Shown here piece after piece: positions 1 to 12,000 of a DNA stretch of 64,000 nt. The DNA lies in NCBI GenBank assembly GCA_963848135.1, contig CAWKCK010000017.1, positions 1,148,538 through 1,212,537 on the forward strand, given 5' to 3'. Numbering within the stretch: position 1 is the stretch's first letter; each line of letters opens with the position of its first letter. The position numbers are program-made. This DNA comes from an uncultured delta proteobacterium. Its GTDB lineage: Bacteria > Desulfobacterota > Desulfobacteria > Desulfobacterales > SG8-13.

Positions 1-3000
1 TTCCACACCCCTGGCACATAAGCGGGTTAACGATCACCTTCTGCTGATCGACATCCAGCATGCGGGCGCCGTAAGGACAGGCATCGATGCACCACTCGCA
101 AAGACTGCAGAGACTGTGACGCACAAGGGCGACAACTTTGCCGGCCGGCAGGTTCTTGCGGTTCAGGATTCGCAGGGAGCGTTGGGCCGCGGCCTCGGCG
201 GTGGCGATCGATTCGGCGATCGAACGGGGCGAATGTGCCAGACCGCAAGCGAAGACGCCCTCCTTGAGCGCATCGACCGGTCGCCACTTCGACTCGGCTT
301 CCTGGAAGAACCCATCCATGTCGCGGTCAATTCCATAGGTGGTAGCAAGATCGGCCGGAAAATTCGGAAGAACGCCCGTGGCCAGAACAAGCAGATCGGT
401 GCTGATCTCGATCTTCCGGCCGATGATCGGTTCGAACACGCTCACCGTTACCGCGCCTTGGTTGATTGCGACCCGCGGTTTGCTTTCCGGACTGTACTGG
501 ATGAAGTCGATGTCGCTTTTGCGCGCCTGGGTGTAATAAGTCTCCGCAAAACCATAGGTCATCATGTCGCGATACAGGACATACACGGCGATGTCTGGAT
601 TCTGCGCTTTCATCTGCAGAGCGTGCTTGAGAGCAGACGCGCAACACACACGGCTGCAGTAATTGCGCGGTTCTTCGCGCGAGTCGACACACTGGATCAT
701 GACCACGTTGTCGAGGCCATGAGGATCGATGGAGCGGTCAGCCAATTTCTGTTCCAGTTCCTTTTGGGTGATGATGGCCGGACAGGTGCCGAAACCGTAT
801 GATGTCGTGGGAGCCTCGTCACCGCCGGTGGCCAGAATCGTGACGCCGTGCTCGAGTGTCTCGACCTTGCCCTCCGGATTTTCAATCGTCGTGTAAAACT
901 GCCCCACATGTCCATAGGCGGCCACAACACGGTTGCCGGTGCGGACCGACACCAGCGGATGTTTATCCACCCTCTGTTCGGTTTCTGCCAGCAAGTCCGG
1001 GATCGCCTGCCCCTCTAATGTCTGTTTGAGCCAAATCAGGTTGCCACCGAGTCGATCGGCCTTCTCGATGATCTCCACCGGGAACCCGTGCTCGGCGATC
1101 GCCAGGGCCGCCGTCATGCCAGCAATACCGCCCCCCACCACCAGGGCGCACTGCTGAATCGGCACCGACACCGTCGGTGACGGATCGATGCGCTTCAGGC
1201 GGGCCAACCCCATTTCCAGTAAAGAATGCAGGCGGTTTACTGAGGGGCCGACTTTCGCCTGGGACGGCTGCACGTCGGCGTCCGGCGCCACGTTCAGCGA
1301 GCGGATATCCACCACGTCCATCAAAGACGGATAAAGGCCGACTTCTCGGGCCAACTGTCTGATATTACGGGCATACACATACGGCAGGCAGGCACCGATC
1401 AGAACCCGATTCGGCTGGCGGCTCTTCACACGTTCGACCAACTCATCCCATCCCGCGGCTGTACAGGTTCTGTCGATGACCTCCACCCCCACAACCATTG
1501 GATCGGCAGCCACCTGCCTTCTCAGGTTATCCACCACAGAGGCTTCCGCCAGGGTCCCGTCGCAGGCACAGATAATGACAAGGATTTGGGGCACCTCCCG
1601 CGAAACGTCTCTCAACGTTGTCTCGGTTTCTGGCTCGGGAGCCAGCCCGCCGCCGGCGCCGTGAATGGTCCGCGAGGCCGCAAGCGCAGCAGCGGACGCC
1701 TGCGTGACCGATTCGCCGATGTCCTTCAACCCTGAAAAAGAGCCCCCCAGCAGAACCCCGTCACGCGACGTTTGCGTGAGAGAAAACGGCACCGTCTGTC
1801 CAAAGCCCCAGCTGTTTAAAGGGATGTCGAGCATCTCGGCCAATGCCACCGAACCGGCCGCCGGTCGCTGCCCGACAGCCAGGACCACCATGTCCTGACG
1901 GGATTCATGCACATGGCCACCGGTGTCGACATATCGGATGATCAGGTCGCCGCTGCCGTCGTCATGCATCACCGAATGAACCCGTCCCCTTTCGAAACGG
2001 ACGCCACATTCGGCTTCCGCCCGATCGCGGTAGCGCTGGAACGGCTTCCCGAAGGTGCGCATATCCATGTAAAAAATAGTGGTTTCGAGAGCACCGACGG
2101 TTTTCTCCCTGGCCACAACGGCTTCTTTGATGGCCGTCATGCAGCAGATATTGGAGCAGAAATCGGCATCGGACTGCAGGTCTCGCGAGCCGACACATTG
2201 AACCCAGGCCACCTTGCGAACCGGCCGCTCATCCCCAGGTCGCACCAGGCGGCCGTCGCTGGGGCCGGTACCGCTGAAGATCCTTTCGAACGCCAGGCTG
2301 GTGACGACCCCCGGCAGGATGCCGTAGCCGAAAGTGTTTTTGCCTTGCGAGGGATCGTAATAAGACGTCCCGCCGCACAGCACCAGGGCGCCGACGTTCA
2401 GACGGCGTCCCTTGGTAGCCTCCACATCCTCATAGATCCTGAGGATCATGGGTATCAGCTTGTCCGGATCGAAAGGTTTGACCAAGTAGTCGAAGGCACC
2501 GGTTTTCATGGCCTCGACGGCGGTCTCCACCGTCGCATAGGCCGTCATCATCACCACACACAAATCGGGGTAGACCTCCTTGGCTTTTTGCAGAACTTCC
2601 ACTCCGTCCATGCCGGGCATCTTGATATCGGTCAGCATGAGGTGATAGGCACCGTCGGCCAACTGTTTCAGCGCAGCGGGCCCGGATTCGGCCATATCGA
2701 CCGAAAACCCCTCGTCTTCGAGCCAGGCCTTCAAGGAGTCACGCACAATCAGTTCGTCGTCCACCACCAGAATGCGGAATGTCTTGCGTTCCTGCTCGGA
2801 AAGCCGGATGGCAGCGGTCGGACACACAGTTTCGCAAGCACCACAGCGGGTACAGGCGCTGAAATCGATTACATACGGGTTCGGTATGGCGTGAGGCACC
2901 GGCAGGTAGATGGCTTTACGGCTGGCCATCCCGAAGTTGAAGGCGTCCGGGACCGTCACCGGACAAACCTTCGCGCAGTCGCCGCACCCAATGCACAGCG

Positions 3001-9000: not shown

Positions 9001-12000
9001 AGAGCATAATGACCGGAATGTTTTTTAGCTTCTGGTCGGCTTTTAGTTCTCGATACAACAGGGTATGGCTGCCATGATTCCGGATCACGTCGATGATGAT
9101 CAGGTCGGGATCTTCGTCGATGACTTCCTGATAGGTCTCGGAATCACCCTCGGCAATTACCGGCTGGAAACCCCGTGTCTGCAACAAATTGCAGAGGAAG
9201 ATCTGCATCTCCGGTTCGTCGCCTAAAATGAAGATTTTCTTCCGCACAAGTTCCGGAGCCAAATCAGCCTCCTTACGCTGGTAATGAATGGACTTTAAAA
9301 GCGGGGGAAAAAAAATTGATTCGCGTTCGATTAATCGAGCATTGAATACCGCTACTGCATGTTATATGCCGTGGCACCTTTATTTTATATATTTCAAATA
9401 ATATCAGAATGTTGTTTAAATTCATGCCCGTCGGCCGCATCATTATGAATCACAACAGGCGTTGCAATTTTTGCAACAATTGCTGTCTGAATAAATTTAA
9501 ATTGTTTTTTTTCAATATGTTAAAAATTGCAGCAATGTTGCGCAACATGCATGCAACGGGCCGGTGGGGGGTACCAGGCTGATCAAACTGGGCCCTAAAC
9601 AGGTTGGTCATTGGGGAAGATAAATCAGATCATCCGACGCTTTTCCCACCAATCAGCAATGAGTCGATTATAGACAAAATCTATCATAAAAAATCTATGC
9701 GTTTCCCTTAGCGAATACCAGTCAATTAGGTGTACCGGAAATACTCAGAGCTCAAAATTTTATCATATGGCTCGCTGATGGTGCATTGCTCGAATACCCT
9801 TAGCCATCATATCAATTATCATCCCTATGACAGGGCGCGTGGCCTTTGCCTTGACACGAAATCCTATACTTTCTAAATTTAGCTGGTATACTCGGTAATC
9901 CGGCAGCAATTCGAAACTAAATGTCACAACTAAAACCTGAGGCGAATGTCCAATCCCAAAACCACACCTAAAAGTAATTCTCTATCTGATGGCGATGGAA
10001 TCATTGCTTTGGATCGATCGCTGAAAATTATGAGCTGCAACCACGTTGCTACCGACATATTGGGCATAGAACTCGAACCCCGGGATCAATTCCCATTGAA
10101 GACGATTTGCGACAAAACTTCCTCGAGAAAATTGGAAACGGCATTGCGCCTTACTATCGATAAAGGGCGATCATATTCAGGGCTTAAGCTTCATCATTCC
10201 GATGCAAATGGCACCGAGAGTCGCATGATTCTCTCAATACAACCCCTCTATAATCACCCGAAAAATATCATTGGCGCCATCCTCTCGATTCAACCTTTTG
10301 TTCCCAGCAATGAACGATCCAATACGGACCTTCCGGATTCCGAATTCGCGTCGAGTGGAGATATTCCAATACATGAAGAATTATTGGAATCAATGCCCGA
10401 GGGCATTTTCACCATCAACACCCGCTGGCGCGTCGCAACTTTCAATCGTCAGGCCGAAAAAATTACGGGATTTAGACGCGAAGAGGTCATTGGCCGTAAT
10501 TGTTGGGAAATATTTCGTTCCGACATGTGCCACACGGGATGCCCTTTGCAAATCGCGCTTGAAACCGGCCGGACAAAAATGGACCAGGATGTCCGTATTC
10601 TGAATAAGGGCGGAACACACCTGACGATATTGGTTAACGCTGGAGTACTGAGGGATTCAGACGGTTTGATCGCAGGGGCAGTGGAAACCTTCCGTCCTTT
10701 GATGGGAGAGATCTGTTCCTCGCAACATCAGCAGAAAGGAACTTATTTTGCCGATATCGTTGGCCGGAGTGGTGTGATGCAGCATATTTTTTCCATGCTG
10801 CCAAGCATTGCTGCCAGCGATGCCAATGTGCTGATTTCTGGGGAAAGCGGAACCGGCAAAGATCTTATCGCCCGCGCGATTCATAACCACTCTCCTCGTT
10901 GTCAAAAGCCATTTGTCGCTGTCAATTGTTCGGCTTTGGCAGAGACCCTTCTTGAATCCGAATTATTCGGCCATGAAAAATCAGCCTTCACGGGCGCAAC
11001 CAGCCACAAAACAGGCCGTTTTGAACTGGCCAAAGGCGGCAGCTTGTTTCTGGATGAAATCGGTGAACTTAAACCGGAGCTTCAAATCAAGTTGCTGCGT
11101 GTTTTGGAAAACCGCGAGTTCGAGCGCGTCGGTGGCACCCAAACCATACCGATGGAAGCGCGCATTGTCAGTGCCACAAATAGAGACCTTCGCCAAGCCA
11201 TTTCTGATGGGCATTTCCGGAAAGATTTTTACTATCGTCTGCGAACGGTCCCCATCGCTGTTCCACCGCTGCGTGAACGCATGGATGATATTCCCCTTTT
11301 AATAGAATATTTTATCAAACGATTTAATGCACGCTATGACAAACGGGTACTATCGATCCATCCGGAGGTAATGCAAAAATTCATGAAATACCACTGGCCT
11401 GGCAATGTCCGCGAGCTGGAACGCACCTTGGAACATGCTTATGTGTTTGTTAAAGGACCGGTAATTCGGGCTCTCGATCTACCGGCACCAGAGGAATTTC
11501 AATCATTTACTAGGGAACCAACCGGATCCGAACCTGCAGCCGATAAAGGAACCAGCATAGAATCCATCCGTTGGGCCCTATCGCGCGCGGCTGGTAACCG
11601 CAAGGCGGCCGCCAGTCTTCTCGGCATTAGTCGCACGACCCTATGGCGTCATATGAAGCAATTCGGCATTGATACTTAAATGTTTCACATGTGTTTCAAG
11701 TGTTTCAAGTGTTTCATCCACACCAATTTTGTTTTAATTATTTGTAATAATTACATTTTAACCAATTTTGGCCTTCATTAACTTCAGTTTTTCTCTTGTT
11801 TGAAACACCCCAGTGGTTCCAACTTCATCCCTCTCACAGCAATCATTGCCCAATTCTTTCCTGCACGCCTTAAATAAATTATTTTCTCTTAATTTTCAAT
11901 AGGTTAAATTTTAAGGCACAAGACTTGCTCTCATGGATGCCGGTAAGATTACACCAATCCAAACCCATCCGGCATTTCTAAGGAACAAATGGTTAGCACC

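What a model noticed while it worked through the whole genome (the two positions that open the first line are those of the whole stretch)
1..9262. HdrA-like flavoprotein with a canonical response-regulator receiver domain inserted, in an Hdr/MvhD/FdhB cluster next to [...]
g04543 (C17:1148446-1151883, 1145 aa) is a heterodisulfide-reductase subunit A (HdrA)-type FAD/Fe-S protein. A complete CheY-like receiver domain (residues 192-301) is inserted right after the two-[4Fe-4S] ferredoxin insert. The receiver has the DD pocket, the phospho-acceptor Asp in LMLTDIKMPGMDG, the Thr in MMTAY and the Lys in YLVKPF. The gene sits in a row with HdrB (g04541), HdrC (g04542), an FrhB/FdhB-like subunit (g04544), MvhD (g04545), a second 1136-aa HdrA-like protein (g04547) and a receiver-like protein (g04548). 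A PAS histidine kinase (g04540) and a response regulator (g04539) follow directly. This predicts direct phosphorylation control of an Hdr-type (flavin-based electron-bif [...]
Evidence so far: - pfam.tsv: Response_reg 192-301 (E 3e-31) lies between Fer4_9 118-180 and the rest of the HdrA body. - Swiss-Prot: residues 8-572 align to HdrA2 of M. kandleri 148-576, which leaves about 135 extra residues. - The receiver signature residues were read from the sequence. - search_genomes with residues 1-450: matches over 1-450 in 17 of 41 Desulfobacterales genomes (this one included), mostly in 1130-1181-aa frames at 62-80% identity. One further match has an in-frame TGA. - Paper searches found no HdrA with a receiver domain. 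The D. autotrophicum genome paper (PMC2702500, passages read, call 89) describes the HdrA/L/D/F types without it. The finding spans contig positions 1142981 to 1157799; this window holds only 1148538 to 1157799 of it. [...]
(Added by a program. Inside this text positions count along the whole contig: contig position 1,148,538 is position 1 of the stretch shown here. "Call 12" and the like, gene names such as g00115 and contig names such as C1 are that model's own, and its searches are not shown. The text may have been shortened before it was handed on; [...] marks where a part breaks off. The agent that wrote the report below was given it as the finding of a first reader that could run no searches.)

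Follow-up and report, generated by a model that had tools for sequence, protein, structure and literature searches.

The report
Receiver domain inserted in tandem HdrA
A large iron-sulfur flavoprotein of the kind that splits electron pairs in anaerobes carries a complete, strongly conserved two-component receiver domain inside its fold, which suggests that sulfate reducers switch this energy-coupling enzyme by phosphorylation.

Summary
The 1145-aa protein (window 1-3346, minus strand; its last 30 codons lie before the window) is a tandem, "type II"-like HdrA. A 127-residue receiver (REC) is inserted exactly between the inserted ferredoxin domain and the return to the FAD domain.

The six phosphorylation residues (D196, D197, D240, T268, Y287, K290) are invariant in 121 of 121 close homologs and in 47 of 48 species-level rows. 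REC is more conserved than the redox domains.

By my hand count, about 177 of 401 genomes of the order carry the form. In the phylum sample 8 of 301 do, 5 of them outside the order. A tree suggests one gain, two losses and one degeneration.

A haem-motif PAS kinase and a REC-kinase hybrid follow the cluster in 25 of 32 evaluable loci. They also follow two REC-less sister clusters, so the pairing is inferred.

Phosphorylation control of the enzyme is the best reading, at about 0.5, and is untested. The domain is annotated ("response regulator"). A receiver-domain colour key stands in the legend of a 2009 supplementary figure, but I found no discussion of it. I rate it a new variant of a known kind.

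The parts
1..3346 (-). Tandem HdrA with inserted receiver, 1145 aa. The last 30 codons and the stop lie upstream of window position 1, at contig C17 1148446-1148537.
   Evidence: ORF; Pfam; alignment to solved HdrA in four pieces; AF2 model with pLDDT 86.3 and pTM 0.86; Foldseek top hits are HdrA chains 8rvy_A, 5odc_A and 7bkd_A.
3017..3346 (-). Module 1, FAD-binding (thioredoxin-reductase-like) domain, N-terminal part (residues 1-110).
   Evidence: Aligns to HdrA 142-~245. G12, G14 and G17 are invariant.
2789..3016 (-). Module 1, inserted ferredoxin domain with two 4-Cys motifs (residues 111-186).
   Evidence: Fer4 and Fer4_7 hits at 113-181. Aligns to the HdrA inserted ferredoxin domain, up to chain residue 310-312.
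2408..2788 (-). Receiver (REC) insert, residues 187-313. The Pfam match covers 192-301 (window 2444-2773). The phospho-acceptor D240 codon is at 2627-2629.
   Evidence: Pfam E 4.8e-31. REC-less relatives show a clean 127-residue gap here. The model shows a (beta-alpha)5 pattern, E191-195 to H294-309. D196, D197, D240, T268, Y287 and K290 are invariant in 121 of 121 sequences and in 47 of 48 rows.
1652..2407 (-). Module 1, FAD-binding domain, C-terminal part (residues 314-565). It holds the 4-Cys cluster motif and the two residues named as key for bifurcation.
   Evidence: Aligns to HdrA 315-500. From the alignment to 5odc_A, E354 and K407 correspond to E356 and K409. E354, K407, C384, C397, C401 and C402 are invariant in 73 sequences that include REC-less forms.
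1277..1591 (-). Module 2, HdrA N-terminal Cys-cluster domain (residues 586-690).
   Evidence: Aligns to HdrA 1-~105. C593, C628 and C653 are invariant and C595 is nearly so.
152..1156 (-). Module 2, second FAD-binding domain without an inserted ferredoxin domain (residues 731-1065).
   Evidence: Pyr_redox_2 and NAD_binding_8 hits from residue 735. C886, C897, C901 and C902 are invariant and K907 is nearly invariant.
1..151 (-). Module 2, C-terminal ferredoxin domain (residues 1066-1145, cut by the window start).
   Evidence: Fer4_10 hit at 1078-1122. Aligns to HdrA 565-642.
3482..4624 (-). FdhB/FrhB-like iron-sulfur protein, 380 aa.
   Evidence: FrhB_FdhB_C hit, E 5.5e-7. The nearest solved chains are the FdhB subunits of Fdh-Hdr and Elp-Hdr complexes: 7bkb_E at 1.8e-26, plus 8rvu_E and 9t1s_M.
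4690..5121 (-). MvhD, 143 aa.
   Evidence: FlpD hit, E 1.3e-53.
5376..8792 (-). HdrL / type III HdrA, 1138 aa. Its GltD-like NAD(P)-binding insert (about residues 304-792) sits at the same junction as the REC.
   Evidence: Pfam and NCBIfam hits. In the pairwise alignment, HdrA-REC 9-178 matches HdrL 147-303 and HdrA-REC 315-557 matches HdrL 793-1043.
8819..9262 (-). Single-domain receiver, 147 aa.
   Evidence: Response_reg at 28.1 bits, below the 30.2 cutoff. Weak DVU0259-family hit. The acceptor Asp and the Lys align with D240 and K290. Homologs at 29-44% identity stand upstream of HdrL in 17 of 34 loci.
9946..13707 (+). Two divergent PAS + sigma-54 activator + HTH_8 regulators (9946-11679 and 11989-13707), without a receiver. 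They are possible transcriptional regulators of the cluster.
   Evidence: Pfam and NCBIfam. The link to the cluster rests on position only.

Best explanation
The protein is a fused pair of HdrA modules, a tandem or 'type II'-like HdrA. It is the core flavoprotein of an Hdr-type, probably flavin-based electron-bifurcating or confurcating, complex. Its partners are HdrL (NAD(P)H input), MvhD, an FdhB-like subunit and, in most genomes, HdrCB. A working receiver domain has been inserted at the hinge where the inserted ferredoxin domain returns to the FAD domain. In canonical HdrA that ferredoxin domain is the low-potential exit; this role is recalled, not tested here. I propose that Asp240 is phosphorylated by the conserved neighbouring kinase pair. 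That pair is a membrane HAMP-PAS-PAS kinase with haem-c motifs in its periplasmic domain, and a REC-kinase hybrid. I further propose that phosphorylation changes the position or mobility of the ferredoxin domain, or the assembly of the complex, and so switches electron flow on or off after translation. Shown here: the architecture, the exact insertion site, conservation of the phosphorylation residues, and synteny with the kinases. Inferred: the phosphotransfer, the identity of the donor kinase, and any effect on activity.
For: Insert boundaries are exact and clean against REC-less relatives.

D196, D197, D240, T268, Y287 and K290 are invariant in 121 of 121 sequences. They are kept in 47 of 48 rows from species-level loci. 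The stretch 266-292 (alpha4-beta5-alpha5) is almost invariant.

REC mean pairwise identity is 0.78, against 0.67-0.71 for the later redox domains.

All cofactor ligands and E354/K407 are invariant, so the host is an enzyme and not a relic.

A PAS-kinase ortholog (at least 48% identity over at least 490 aa) lies within 13 kb downstream in 25 of 32 evaluable loci from different species. It is also present in 9 of 11 evaluable loci of the first set.

The one locus with a degenerate receiver (L025: A, G, D, I, Y, T at the six sites) has no such kinase nearby.

No DNA-binding response regulator is encoded in the cluster. The nearby transcription factors are PAS-sigma54 activators without a receiver.

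The same junction holds the electron-input GltD module in HdrL, so it is a functionally connected site.

The AF2 model is confident overall (pLDDT 86.3, pTM 0.86) and in the REC blocks (79-90).
Against: There is no biochemical evidence of any kind.

The kinase pair also follows two REC-less sister clusters (L038 at 48% and 40% identity, L041 at 55% and 41%). Its association with the cluster therefore does not depend on the HdrA receiver, and it has other targets.

Other receivers compete as targets: the 147-aa receiver, the REC of the hybrid kinase, and a Usp-REC-Usp protein in some loci.

Seven of 32 evaluable loci lack the kinase nearby while keeping an intact receiver.

Two lineages lost the receiver and one let it decay while keeping the enzyme, so the control is dispensable.

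The HdrA REC is only 37% identical to the neighbouring hybrid kinase's REC. Its nearest paralogs in the genome lie elsewhere, so sequence gives no pairing evidence.

I could not read model coordinates, so the contacts of the REC are unknown.

The substrates of the complex are unknown.
Confidence: 0.5

Rival explanations
1. The signal flows the other way. The Fe-S flavoprotein is the sensor and its receiver is a node of the phosphorelay. The redox state of the HdrA body alters how fast the receiver accepts or loses phosphate. The protein then acts as a redox-dependent phosphate sink or modulator for the kinase pair, whose real outputs lie elsewhere (the small receiver, the Usp-REC-Usp protein, other regulators).
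For: The kinase pair persists next to REC-less sister clusters, so it has other targets. Several receivers are encoded in and around the cluster. No DNA-binding output is encoded nearby.
Against: The host keeps every cofactor ligand and the bifurcation residues. It sits in an operon-like row with the catalytic partners HdrL, MvhD, FdhB-like and HdrCB in 32 of 34 loci, as expected of a metabolic enzyme. The two readings do not exclude each other.
Confidence: 0.2
2. The receiver fold is used structurally, as a spacer, a dimerisation module or a docking module, without phosphorylation.
For: A subclade (L025, P0124) keeps a decayed receiver of full length that lacks the acidic pair, the Thr and the Lys. 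This shows that the fold can persist without the chemistry.
Against: The six phosphorylation residues are invariant in 121 of 121 sequences and in 47 of 48 rows. A purely structural role does not explain that. The kinases are syntenic in most loci.
Confidence: 0.1
3. The receiver controls something other than catalysis, such as the stability, proteolysis or localisation of the protein (an RssB-like adaptor logic). The kinase pair may or may not be the donor.
For: This is allowed by the same conservation data. I have no specific support for it.
Against: No protease or adaptor genes are conserved in the 34 loci compared. However, that search looked only for the nine cluster proteins.
Confidence: 0.1

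Closest known systems
Type II (tandem) HdrA of methane-metabolising archaea, in clusters with HdrBC, MvhD, FdhB and a molybdopterin-family protein (PMC12054007; section 5 and passages read)
   Same: Both have two thioredoxin-reductase-like FAD domains in one chain. In both, the N-module lacks the N-terminal and C-terminal domains and the C-module carries them. The neighbours MvhD, FdhB-like and HdrBC are shared. Both kinds are biochemically unstudied, according to that paper.
   Different: This family is bacterial (Desulfobacterales and a few other orders of the phylum). It carries a receiver insert. No molybdopterin-family gene is in the cluster. It is paired with an HdrL gene. That paper has 0 occurrences of 'receiver' or 'response regulator'.
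HdrL / type III HdrA (HdrA with an inserted GltD-like NAD(P)H module; first named in D. autotrophicum, PMC2702500)
   Same: A foreign domain is inserted at the same junction, directly after the inserted ferredoxin domain. It is encoded in the same cluster.
   Different: The HdrL insert is a redox module of about 490 aa that brings electrons in. The insert here is a 127-aa signalling domain without a cofactor.
Canonical HdrA of MvhAGD-HdrABC, Fdh-Hdr-Fmd and Elp-Hdr complexes (PDB 5odc, 7bkb, 8rvy)
   Same: The fold, the Fe-S ligands and the residues equivalent to E356/K409 match. The partners MvhD, FdhB and HdrBC are shared.
   Different: Canonical HdrA is a single module of about 650 aa that forms a homodimer. 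It has no receiver and is not known to be regulated by phosphorylation (the last point is recalled, not tested).
Response regulators with enzymatic outputs, such as CheB, PleD/WspR and RpfG (recalled; Galperin's census could not be opened)
   Same: A CheY-like receiver with the full D-D-D-T-K set is fused to an enzyme, presumably to control it.
   Different: In those proteins the receiver is terminal and the output acts in signalling or chemotaxis. Here the receiver is inserted inside the fold of a large redox enzyme of energy metabolism.

Membership tests
HdrA (heterodisulfide reductase subunit A type Fe-S flavoprotein) | Thioredoxin-reductase-like FAD domain that is similar in sequence and fold to solved HdrA | tested here: met
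   phmmer against the PDB gives 8rvv_A at E 3.5e-114 and 5odc_A at 3.6e-110. Foldseek top hits are HdrA chains. Two such domains are present.
HdrA (heterodisulfide reductase subunit A type Fe-S flavoprotein) | Four-Cys cluster motif in the FAD domain, plus the Glu and Lys named as key for bifurcation (E356 and K409 in the M. thermolithotrophicus numbering used in PMC12054007) | tested here: met
   In module 1, C384, C397, C401, C402, E354 and K407 are invariant in 73 sequences and were placed by the 5odc_A alignment. In module 2, C886, C897, C901 and C902 are invariant and K907 is nearly invariant. I did not place the Glu of module 2 rigorously.
HdrA (heterodisulfide reductase subunit A type Fe-S flavoprotein) | Inserted ferredoxin domain, N-terminal cluster domain and C-terminal ferredoxin domain | tested here: met
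   All three are present but divided between the modules. The inserted ferredoxin domain is in module 1 only. The N- and C-terminal domains are in module 2 only.
HdrA (heterodisulfide reductase subunit A type Fe-S flavoprotein) | Reaches the curated NCBIfam cutoff of an HdrA model | tested here: not met
   The best model is NF040770 (HdrA2) at 668.4 bits against a cutoff of 1100. No curated model covers this architecture.
HdrA (heterodisulfide reductase subunit A type Fe-S flavoprotein) | Heterodisulfide- or ferredoxin-linked bifurcating activity in a complex with HdrBC | not testable with these tools
   There is gene order only. HdrC and HdrB follow in the query. They are missing between HdrA and the kinase in L011-L014 and in L092, L093, L109, L114 and L115.
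Response regulator receiver domain (CheY-like, PF00072) | Profile match above the gathering score | tested here: met
   107.6 bits against 30.2, E 4.8e-31, covering profile positions 1-110 of 111.
Response regulator receiver domain (CheY-like, PF00072) | Acidic pair, phospho-acceptor Asp, Thr/Ser, aromatic switch residue and Lys (the CheY D12, D13, D57, T87, Y106, K109 set; that numbering is recalled) | tested here: met
   D196, D197, D240, T268, Y287 and K290 are invariant in 121 of 121 sequences and in 47 of 48 rows.
Response regulator receiver domain (CheY-like, PF00072) | (beta-alpha)5 fold | tested here: met
   The model's secondary structure alternates five strands and five helices: E191-195, H199-211, E215-219, H222-231, E236-240, H248-258, E263-268, H270-281, E286-289, H294-309.
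Response regulator receiver domain (CheY-like, PF00072) | Phosphotransfer from a histidine kinase | not testable with these tools
   Only synteny with a kinase pair is available.
Type II HdrA gene cluster of PMC12054007 | Two FAD domains in one chain, with MvhD, FdhB and HdrBC as neighbours | tested here: met
Type II HdrA gene cluster of PMC12054007 | Non-catalytic molybdopterin-family partner gene in the cluster | tested here: not met
   None of the nine cluster proteins has a molybdopterin family hit in Pfam.

The most novel reading that the evidence does not exclude
A two-component phosphorelay, started by a periplasmic haem-based sensor kinase, directly gates the low-potential (ferredoxin) branch of a flavin-based electron-bifurcating Hdr-type complex. 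It does so by moving the inserted ferredoxin domain through the phosphorylated receiver. Many Desulfobacterales could then switch energy coupling within seconds, without new protein synthesis. This would be the first case of signal-transduction control built into an electron-bifurcating enzyme.
Probability: 0.3. Interest if true: 0.85.

Novelty: new variant of a known kind. Interest (0 to 1): 0.68.

Why it matters
Flavin-based electron bifurcation is central to the energy economy of anaerobes. Its known enzymes are regulated, as far as I recall, only through gene expression and substrate levels. This family is a widespread, strongly conserved, naturally occurring fusion of a bifurcation-type flavoprotein with a phospho-switch. 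It sits at the hinge of the domain that hands out low-potential electrons.

If the switch works, it gives a handle for two things. One is studying how conformational gating controls bifurcation, by comparing BeF3- or D240 variants as on and off states in cryo-EM. The other is understanding how marine sulfate reducers adjust redox balance quickly.

It also corrects annotation. Public records name these 1145-aa Fe-S flavoproteins 'response regulator' or 'FAD-dependent oxidoreductase'.

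Tried and rejected
1. Origin of the insert by local duplication of the neighbouring hybrid kinase's receiver: rejected. That receiver is only 37% identical and stands about 29th in the genome. The nearest paralogs (49-52%) lie in 457-475-aa frames elsewhere.

2. Sigma-54 promoter upstream of the cluster. A scan with the recalled -24/-12 consensus gave 82 matches with up to 2 mismatches, against 64.8 expected. No convincing site lies in the 9263-9945 intergenic region. No claim is made.

3. Contacts of the receiver in the AF2 model. Coordinates are not exposed to the script box. 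Foldseek only re-found HdrA and thioredoxin reductases. The docking face is therefore unknown.

4. Complex prediction was not used. Kinase-receiver contacts are transient, and the tool text says an enzyme with its substrate is rarely worth a job.

6. Galperin's census of response-regulator output domains could not be opened by a recalled PMC id and DOI. I therefore cannot say whether an HdrA-type output is listed there.

7. Sequencing runs. All holders carry small shares of the words (at most 0.27), so I make no claim about habitat or strain. Uncovered parts carry no meaning.

8. Paper searches found nothing that discusses the fusion: HdrA with 'receiver domain' (2 irrelevant papers); heterodisulfide reductase, HdrA, response regulator and Desulfobacter (7 papers); HdrA with CheY (12 papers); response regulators, output domains and heterodisulfide reductase (1 paper); receiver, bifurcation and flavoprotein terms (14 papers); enzymatic output domains with oxidoreductase (1 paper); Desulfonema magnum with heterodisulfide reductase (1 paper); HdrA4 or HdrL. 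For most of these I saw only the listings. I read passages of PMC2702500, PMC5109826, PMC10553843 and PMC12054007.

Full report
**Observation.** All nine genes of the finding lie on the minus strand of contig C17. I fetched C17 1138538-1158537 as L009, so window position = L009 position - 10000. The central ORF (L009 9909-13346, window -91..3346) is 1145 aa. Pfam places Response_reg at residues 192-301 (E 4.8e-31, 107.6 bits, cutoff 30.2). It lies between the 4Fe-4S hits at 113-181 and the remaining flavoprotein.

**Anatomy.** Against solved structures the protein aligns to HdrA in four pieces:
- residues 7-185 match HdrA 142-310 (first half of the FAD domain plus the inserted ferredoxin domain);
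- residues 315-500 match HdrA 315-497 (second half of the FAD domain);
- residues 586-762 match HdrA 1-171 (N-terminal cluster domain and the start of a second FAD domain);
- residues 966-1144 match HdrA 465-642 (end of the FAD domain and the C-terminal ferredoxin domain).

It is therefore a tandem of two HdrA modules. Module 1 lacks the N- and C-terminal domains. Module 2 lacks the inserted ferredoxin domain. This matches the 'type II' HdrA described for methane-metabolising archaea, which clusters with HdrBC, MvhD and FdhB (PMC12054007, section 5 and passages).

From the 5odc_A alignment, the two residues that paper names as key for bifurcation (E356, K409) correspond to E354 and K407. These two residues, and the four-Cys motifs of both modules, are invariant in a 73-sequence alignment that includes REC-less relatives. 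An AF2 model built on that alignment is confident (mean pLDDT 86.3, pTM 0.86; only residues 686-700 are disordered). It shows a (beta-alpha)5 pattern for residues 191-309. Foldseek returns HdrA chains first.

**The insert.** Ten REC-less tandem HdrA proteins in that alignment show one clean gap of about 127 residues, corresponding to query 187-313. The gap lies between the end of the ferredoxin domain and the strand that re-enters the FAD domain. One search shows the same gap in eight REC-less rows, including P0123 and P0131.

The neighbouring HdrL gene carries its GltD-like NAD(P)-binding insert (about residues 304-792) at the same junction. HdrA-REC 9-178 matches HdrL 147-303, and 315-557 matches 793-1043. 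This junction is thus a recurrent insertion point next to the ferredoxin-domain clusters.

**Is the receiver functional?** In a MAFFT alignment of the query with the 120 best homologs (64-91% identity, 1129-1161 aa; all 120 carry PF00072), D196, D197, D240, T268, Y287 and K290 are invariant in 121 of 121. Residues 266-292 are nearly invariant.

In 48 rows (the query plus 47 of 48 loci from different species; L023 gave no long match), the six residues are kept in 47. The exception is L025, which has A, G, D, I, Y, T at these sites.

The receiver is more conserved than most of its host. Its mean pairwise identity is 0.78, against 0.71 for the ferredoxin insert, 0.69 and 0.67 for the later FAD-domain parts, and 0.85 for the first 110 residues.

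**Distribution.** I searched with residues 100-420, which span the insert. Best E-values in 401 genomes of the order are bimodal. By my hand count of the table, about 177 genomes have 1e-100 or better, with full-length matches in frames of about 1140-1190 aa. The others reach at best 3.9e-97, and most lie at 1e-26 to 1e-39.

In a sample of the phylum, 8 of 301 genomes match at 1e-90 or better. Five of these lie outside the order, in four family codes.

In the library clustered at 50% identity, 16 of the best 150 representatives have the receiver. The rest are REC-less tandem forms of about 1000 aa, forms of about 1500 aa, or shorter pieces.

**History.** I built a tree of 58 rows with the receiver columns removed (IQ-TREE quick, LG+G4, SH-aLRT support, rooted on five large-insert forms). 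All 18 REC-bearing and both degenerate rows fall in one clade of 22 (support 99). Two REC-less rows are nested inside it: P0123 as sister of P0121 (support 98), and P0131. With that rooting the simplest reading is one gain, two losses and one decay. The root is an assumption and the search was the quick one.

**Neighbourhood.** The query row runs, in gene order, as follows:
- the 147-aa receiver;
- HdrL;
- MvhD;
- the FdhB-like protein;
- HdrA-REC;
- HdrC (C17 1147655-1148242);
- HdrB (1146771-1147658);
- the HAMP-PAS-PAS kinase (1144402-1146741);
- the REC + HATPase hybrid kinase (1142981-1144177).

The FdhB-like protein is nearest to the FdhB subunits that dock on HdrA in solved complexes (7bkb_E at 1.8e-26).

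In 16 REC-bearing loci from the genome collection, a PAS-kinase ortholog (55-64% identity) is present in 9 of 11 evaluable loci.

I then took 34 further loci, one per family code where the flank allowed. I chose them from the place tables without knowledge of their neighbours. They may overlap in species with the first set. Results:
- The kinase ortholog (at least 48% identity over at least 490 aa) lies within 13 kb downstream in 25 of 32 evaluable loci.
- It is absent in L091, L096, L098, L101, L105, L110 and L121. L095 and L106 are not evaluable.
- HdrL-MvhD-FdhB-like stands upstream in 32 of 34.
- HdrCB is missing between HdrA and the kinase in L092, L093, L109, L114 and L115, as it is in L011-L014 of the first set.

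**Evidence against an exclusive pairing.** The REC-less sister clusters L038 and L041 keep the kinase pair, at 48% and 55% identity for the PAS kinase and 40% and 41% for the hybrid. Some loci also encode a Usp-REC-Usp protein whose receiver is 53-61% identical to the HdrA receiver (L108 11698-13008; similar tblastn matches in L107 and L022).

The degenerate-REC locus L025 lacks the kinases, which fits the model but is a single case.

**The kinases.** The periplasmic domain of the PAS kinase has a CxxCH and a Cx4CH motif, conserved in 11 of 11 orthologs aligned. It also has a weak Mcp40H-20 sensor hit. Haem binding is inferred from these motifs only. The hybrid kinase has a full receiver followed by a kinase core.

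No DNA-binding response regulator is encoded in the row. The two divergent regulators upstream are PAS-sigma54 activators without a receiver.

**Expression.** Contigs of four metatranscriptome runs, 85-95% alike and therefore from relatives, cover the cluster. One 1502-base piece spans window 1815-3316, across the insert. RNA libraries can hold DNA, so this is only a weak hint of transcription.

**Literature.** The eight searches listed under Tried and rejected found no discussion of an HdrA with a receiver. PMC12054007 has 0 occurrences of 'receiver' or 'response regulator'.

PMC2702500 draws a locus VIII holding hdrL, hdrA4, an fdhB-type gene and HdrB/HdrC orthologues. The numbered keys of that figure legend include 'response regulator', 'histidine kinase' and 'CheY-like regulator', and I cannot see which locus they mark. 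The legend of its supplementary Fig. S3a contains a colour key for a response regulator receiver domain. The domain was therefore apparently drawn in 2009. I cannot see which protein carries it, and the text passages I read do not discuss it.

Public records name family members 'response regulator', 'FAD-dependent oxidoreductase' or 'heterodisulfide reductase subunit A'. No NCBIfam model reaches its cutoff.

**Mechanism.** The best reading (about 0.5) is as follows. The receiver is phosphorylated at D240, most likely by the conserved kinase pair. Phosphorylation changes the position of the inserted ferredoxin domain or the assembly of the complex, and so gates electron flow after translation.

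The role of that ferredoxin domain as the low-potential exit, and the closeness of the two termini of a CheY fold (which makes it suited to insertion), are recalled from knowledge of HdrA and CheY structures. They were not tested here.

The rival readings are:
- the flavoprotein acts as a redox input or phosphate sink of the relay (0.2);
- the receiver has a purely structural role (0.1);
- the receiver controls stability or localisation (0.1).

**Limits.** There is no biochemistry. The substrates of the complex are unknown. The contacts of the receiver in the model could not be read. The gene contexts of P0123, P0131 and P0124 are unknown.

Noticed in passing
L009 5865-8204 (minus strand; contig C17 1144402-1146741, just before the window): The periplasmic domain of the HAMP-PAS-PAS kinase holds a CxxCH and a Cx4CH motif. 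Both are conserved in 11 of 11 orthologs aligned. This suggests a haem-c based sensor (with a weak Mcp40H-20 sensor hit).
   Followed up: partly
L108 11698-13008 (+); similar tblastn matches at L107 about 12141 and L022 15583-16011 (-): L108 encodes a Usp-REC-Usp protein downstream of HdrB. Its receiver is 53% identical to the HdrA receiver, flanking residues included. L107 and L022 have similar tblastn matches (57% and 61%) that I did not scan for domains. It is a second host of the same receiver type in the same gene cluster.
   Followed up: partly
L025 10001-13423; protein P0124: One subclade keeps a full-length but decayed receiver. L025 has A, G, D, I, Y, T at the six key sites, and the locus has no kinase pair nearby.
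   Followed up: partly
window 5376-8792 (-) compared with window 2408-2788 (-): The GltD-like insert of HdrL and the receiver of the tandem HdrA occupy the same junction after the inserted ferredoxin domain. Representatives of about 1500 aa (such as P0158 and P0163) match query 314-1144 only from about their residue 650-685 onward, which points to a much longer N-terminal part. I did not examine that part.
   Followed up: partly
window 9946-11679 (+) and 11989-13707 (+): Two paralogous PAS + sigma-54 activator + HTH regulators, without a receiver, stand divergently upstream of the cluster. A scan found no convincing -24/-12 promoter in the intergenic region.
   Followed up: partly
L011-L014, L092, L093, L109, L114, L115: In these loci the kinase gene follows HdrA-REC directly and HdrC/HdrB are missing from that position. 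The conserved core is therefore HdrL-MvhD-FdhB-like-HdrA-REC plus the kinases.
   Followed up: no
L091 and L098: Two genomes have HdrA-REC with HdrC/HdrB but without HdrL, MvhD, FdhB-like or the kinases within the 20 kb fetched.
   Followed up: no
G065:C1:2022263-2023222 (locus L105): One ortholog has a single in-frame TGA within residues 100-420. In L105 the match to the query ends at residue 1024, with no HdrCB or kinase downstream. It could be selenocysteine or a break; I did not examine it.
   Followed up: no
window 8819-9262 (-): The 147-aa receiver scores below the Pfam cutoff (28.1 against 30.2 bits). It still aligns with the acceptor Asp and the Lys of the HdrA receiver, has G-D-E in place of D-D-E, and carries an extra loop before beta5. 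Homologs at 29-44% identity stand upstream of HdrL in 17 of 34 loci.
   Followed up: partly
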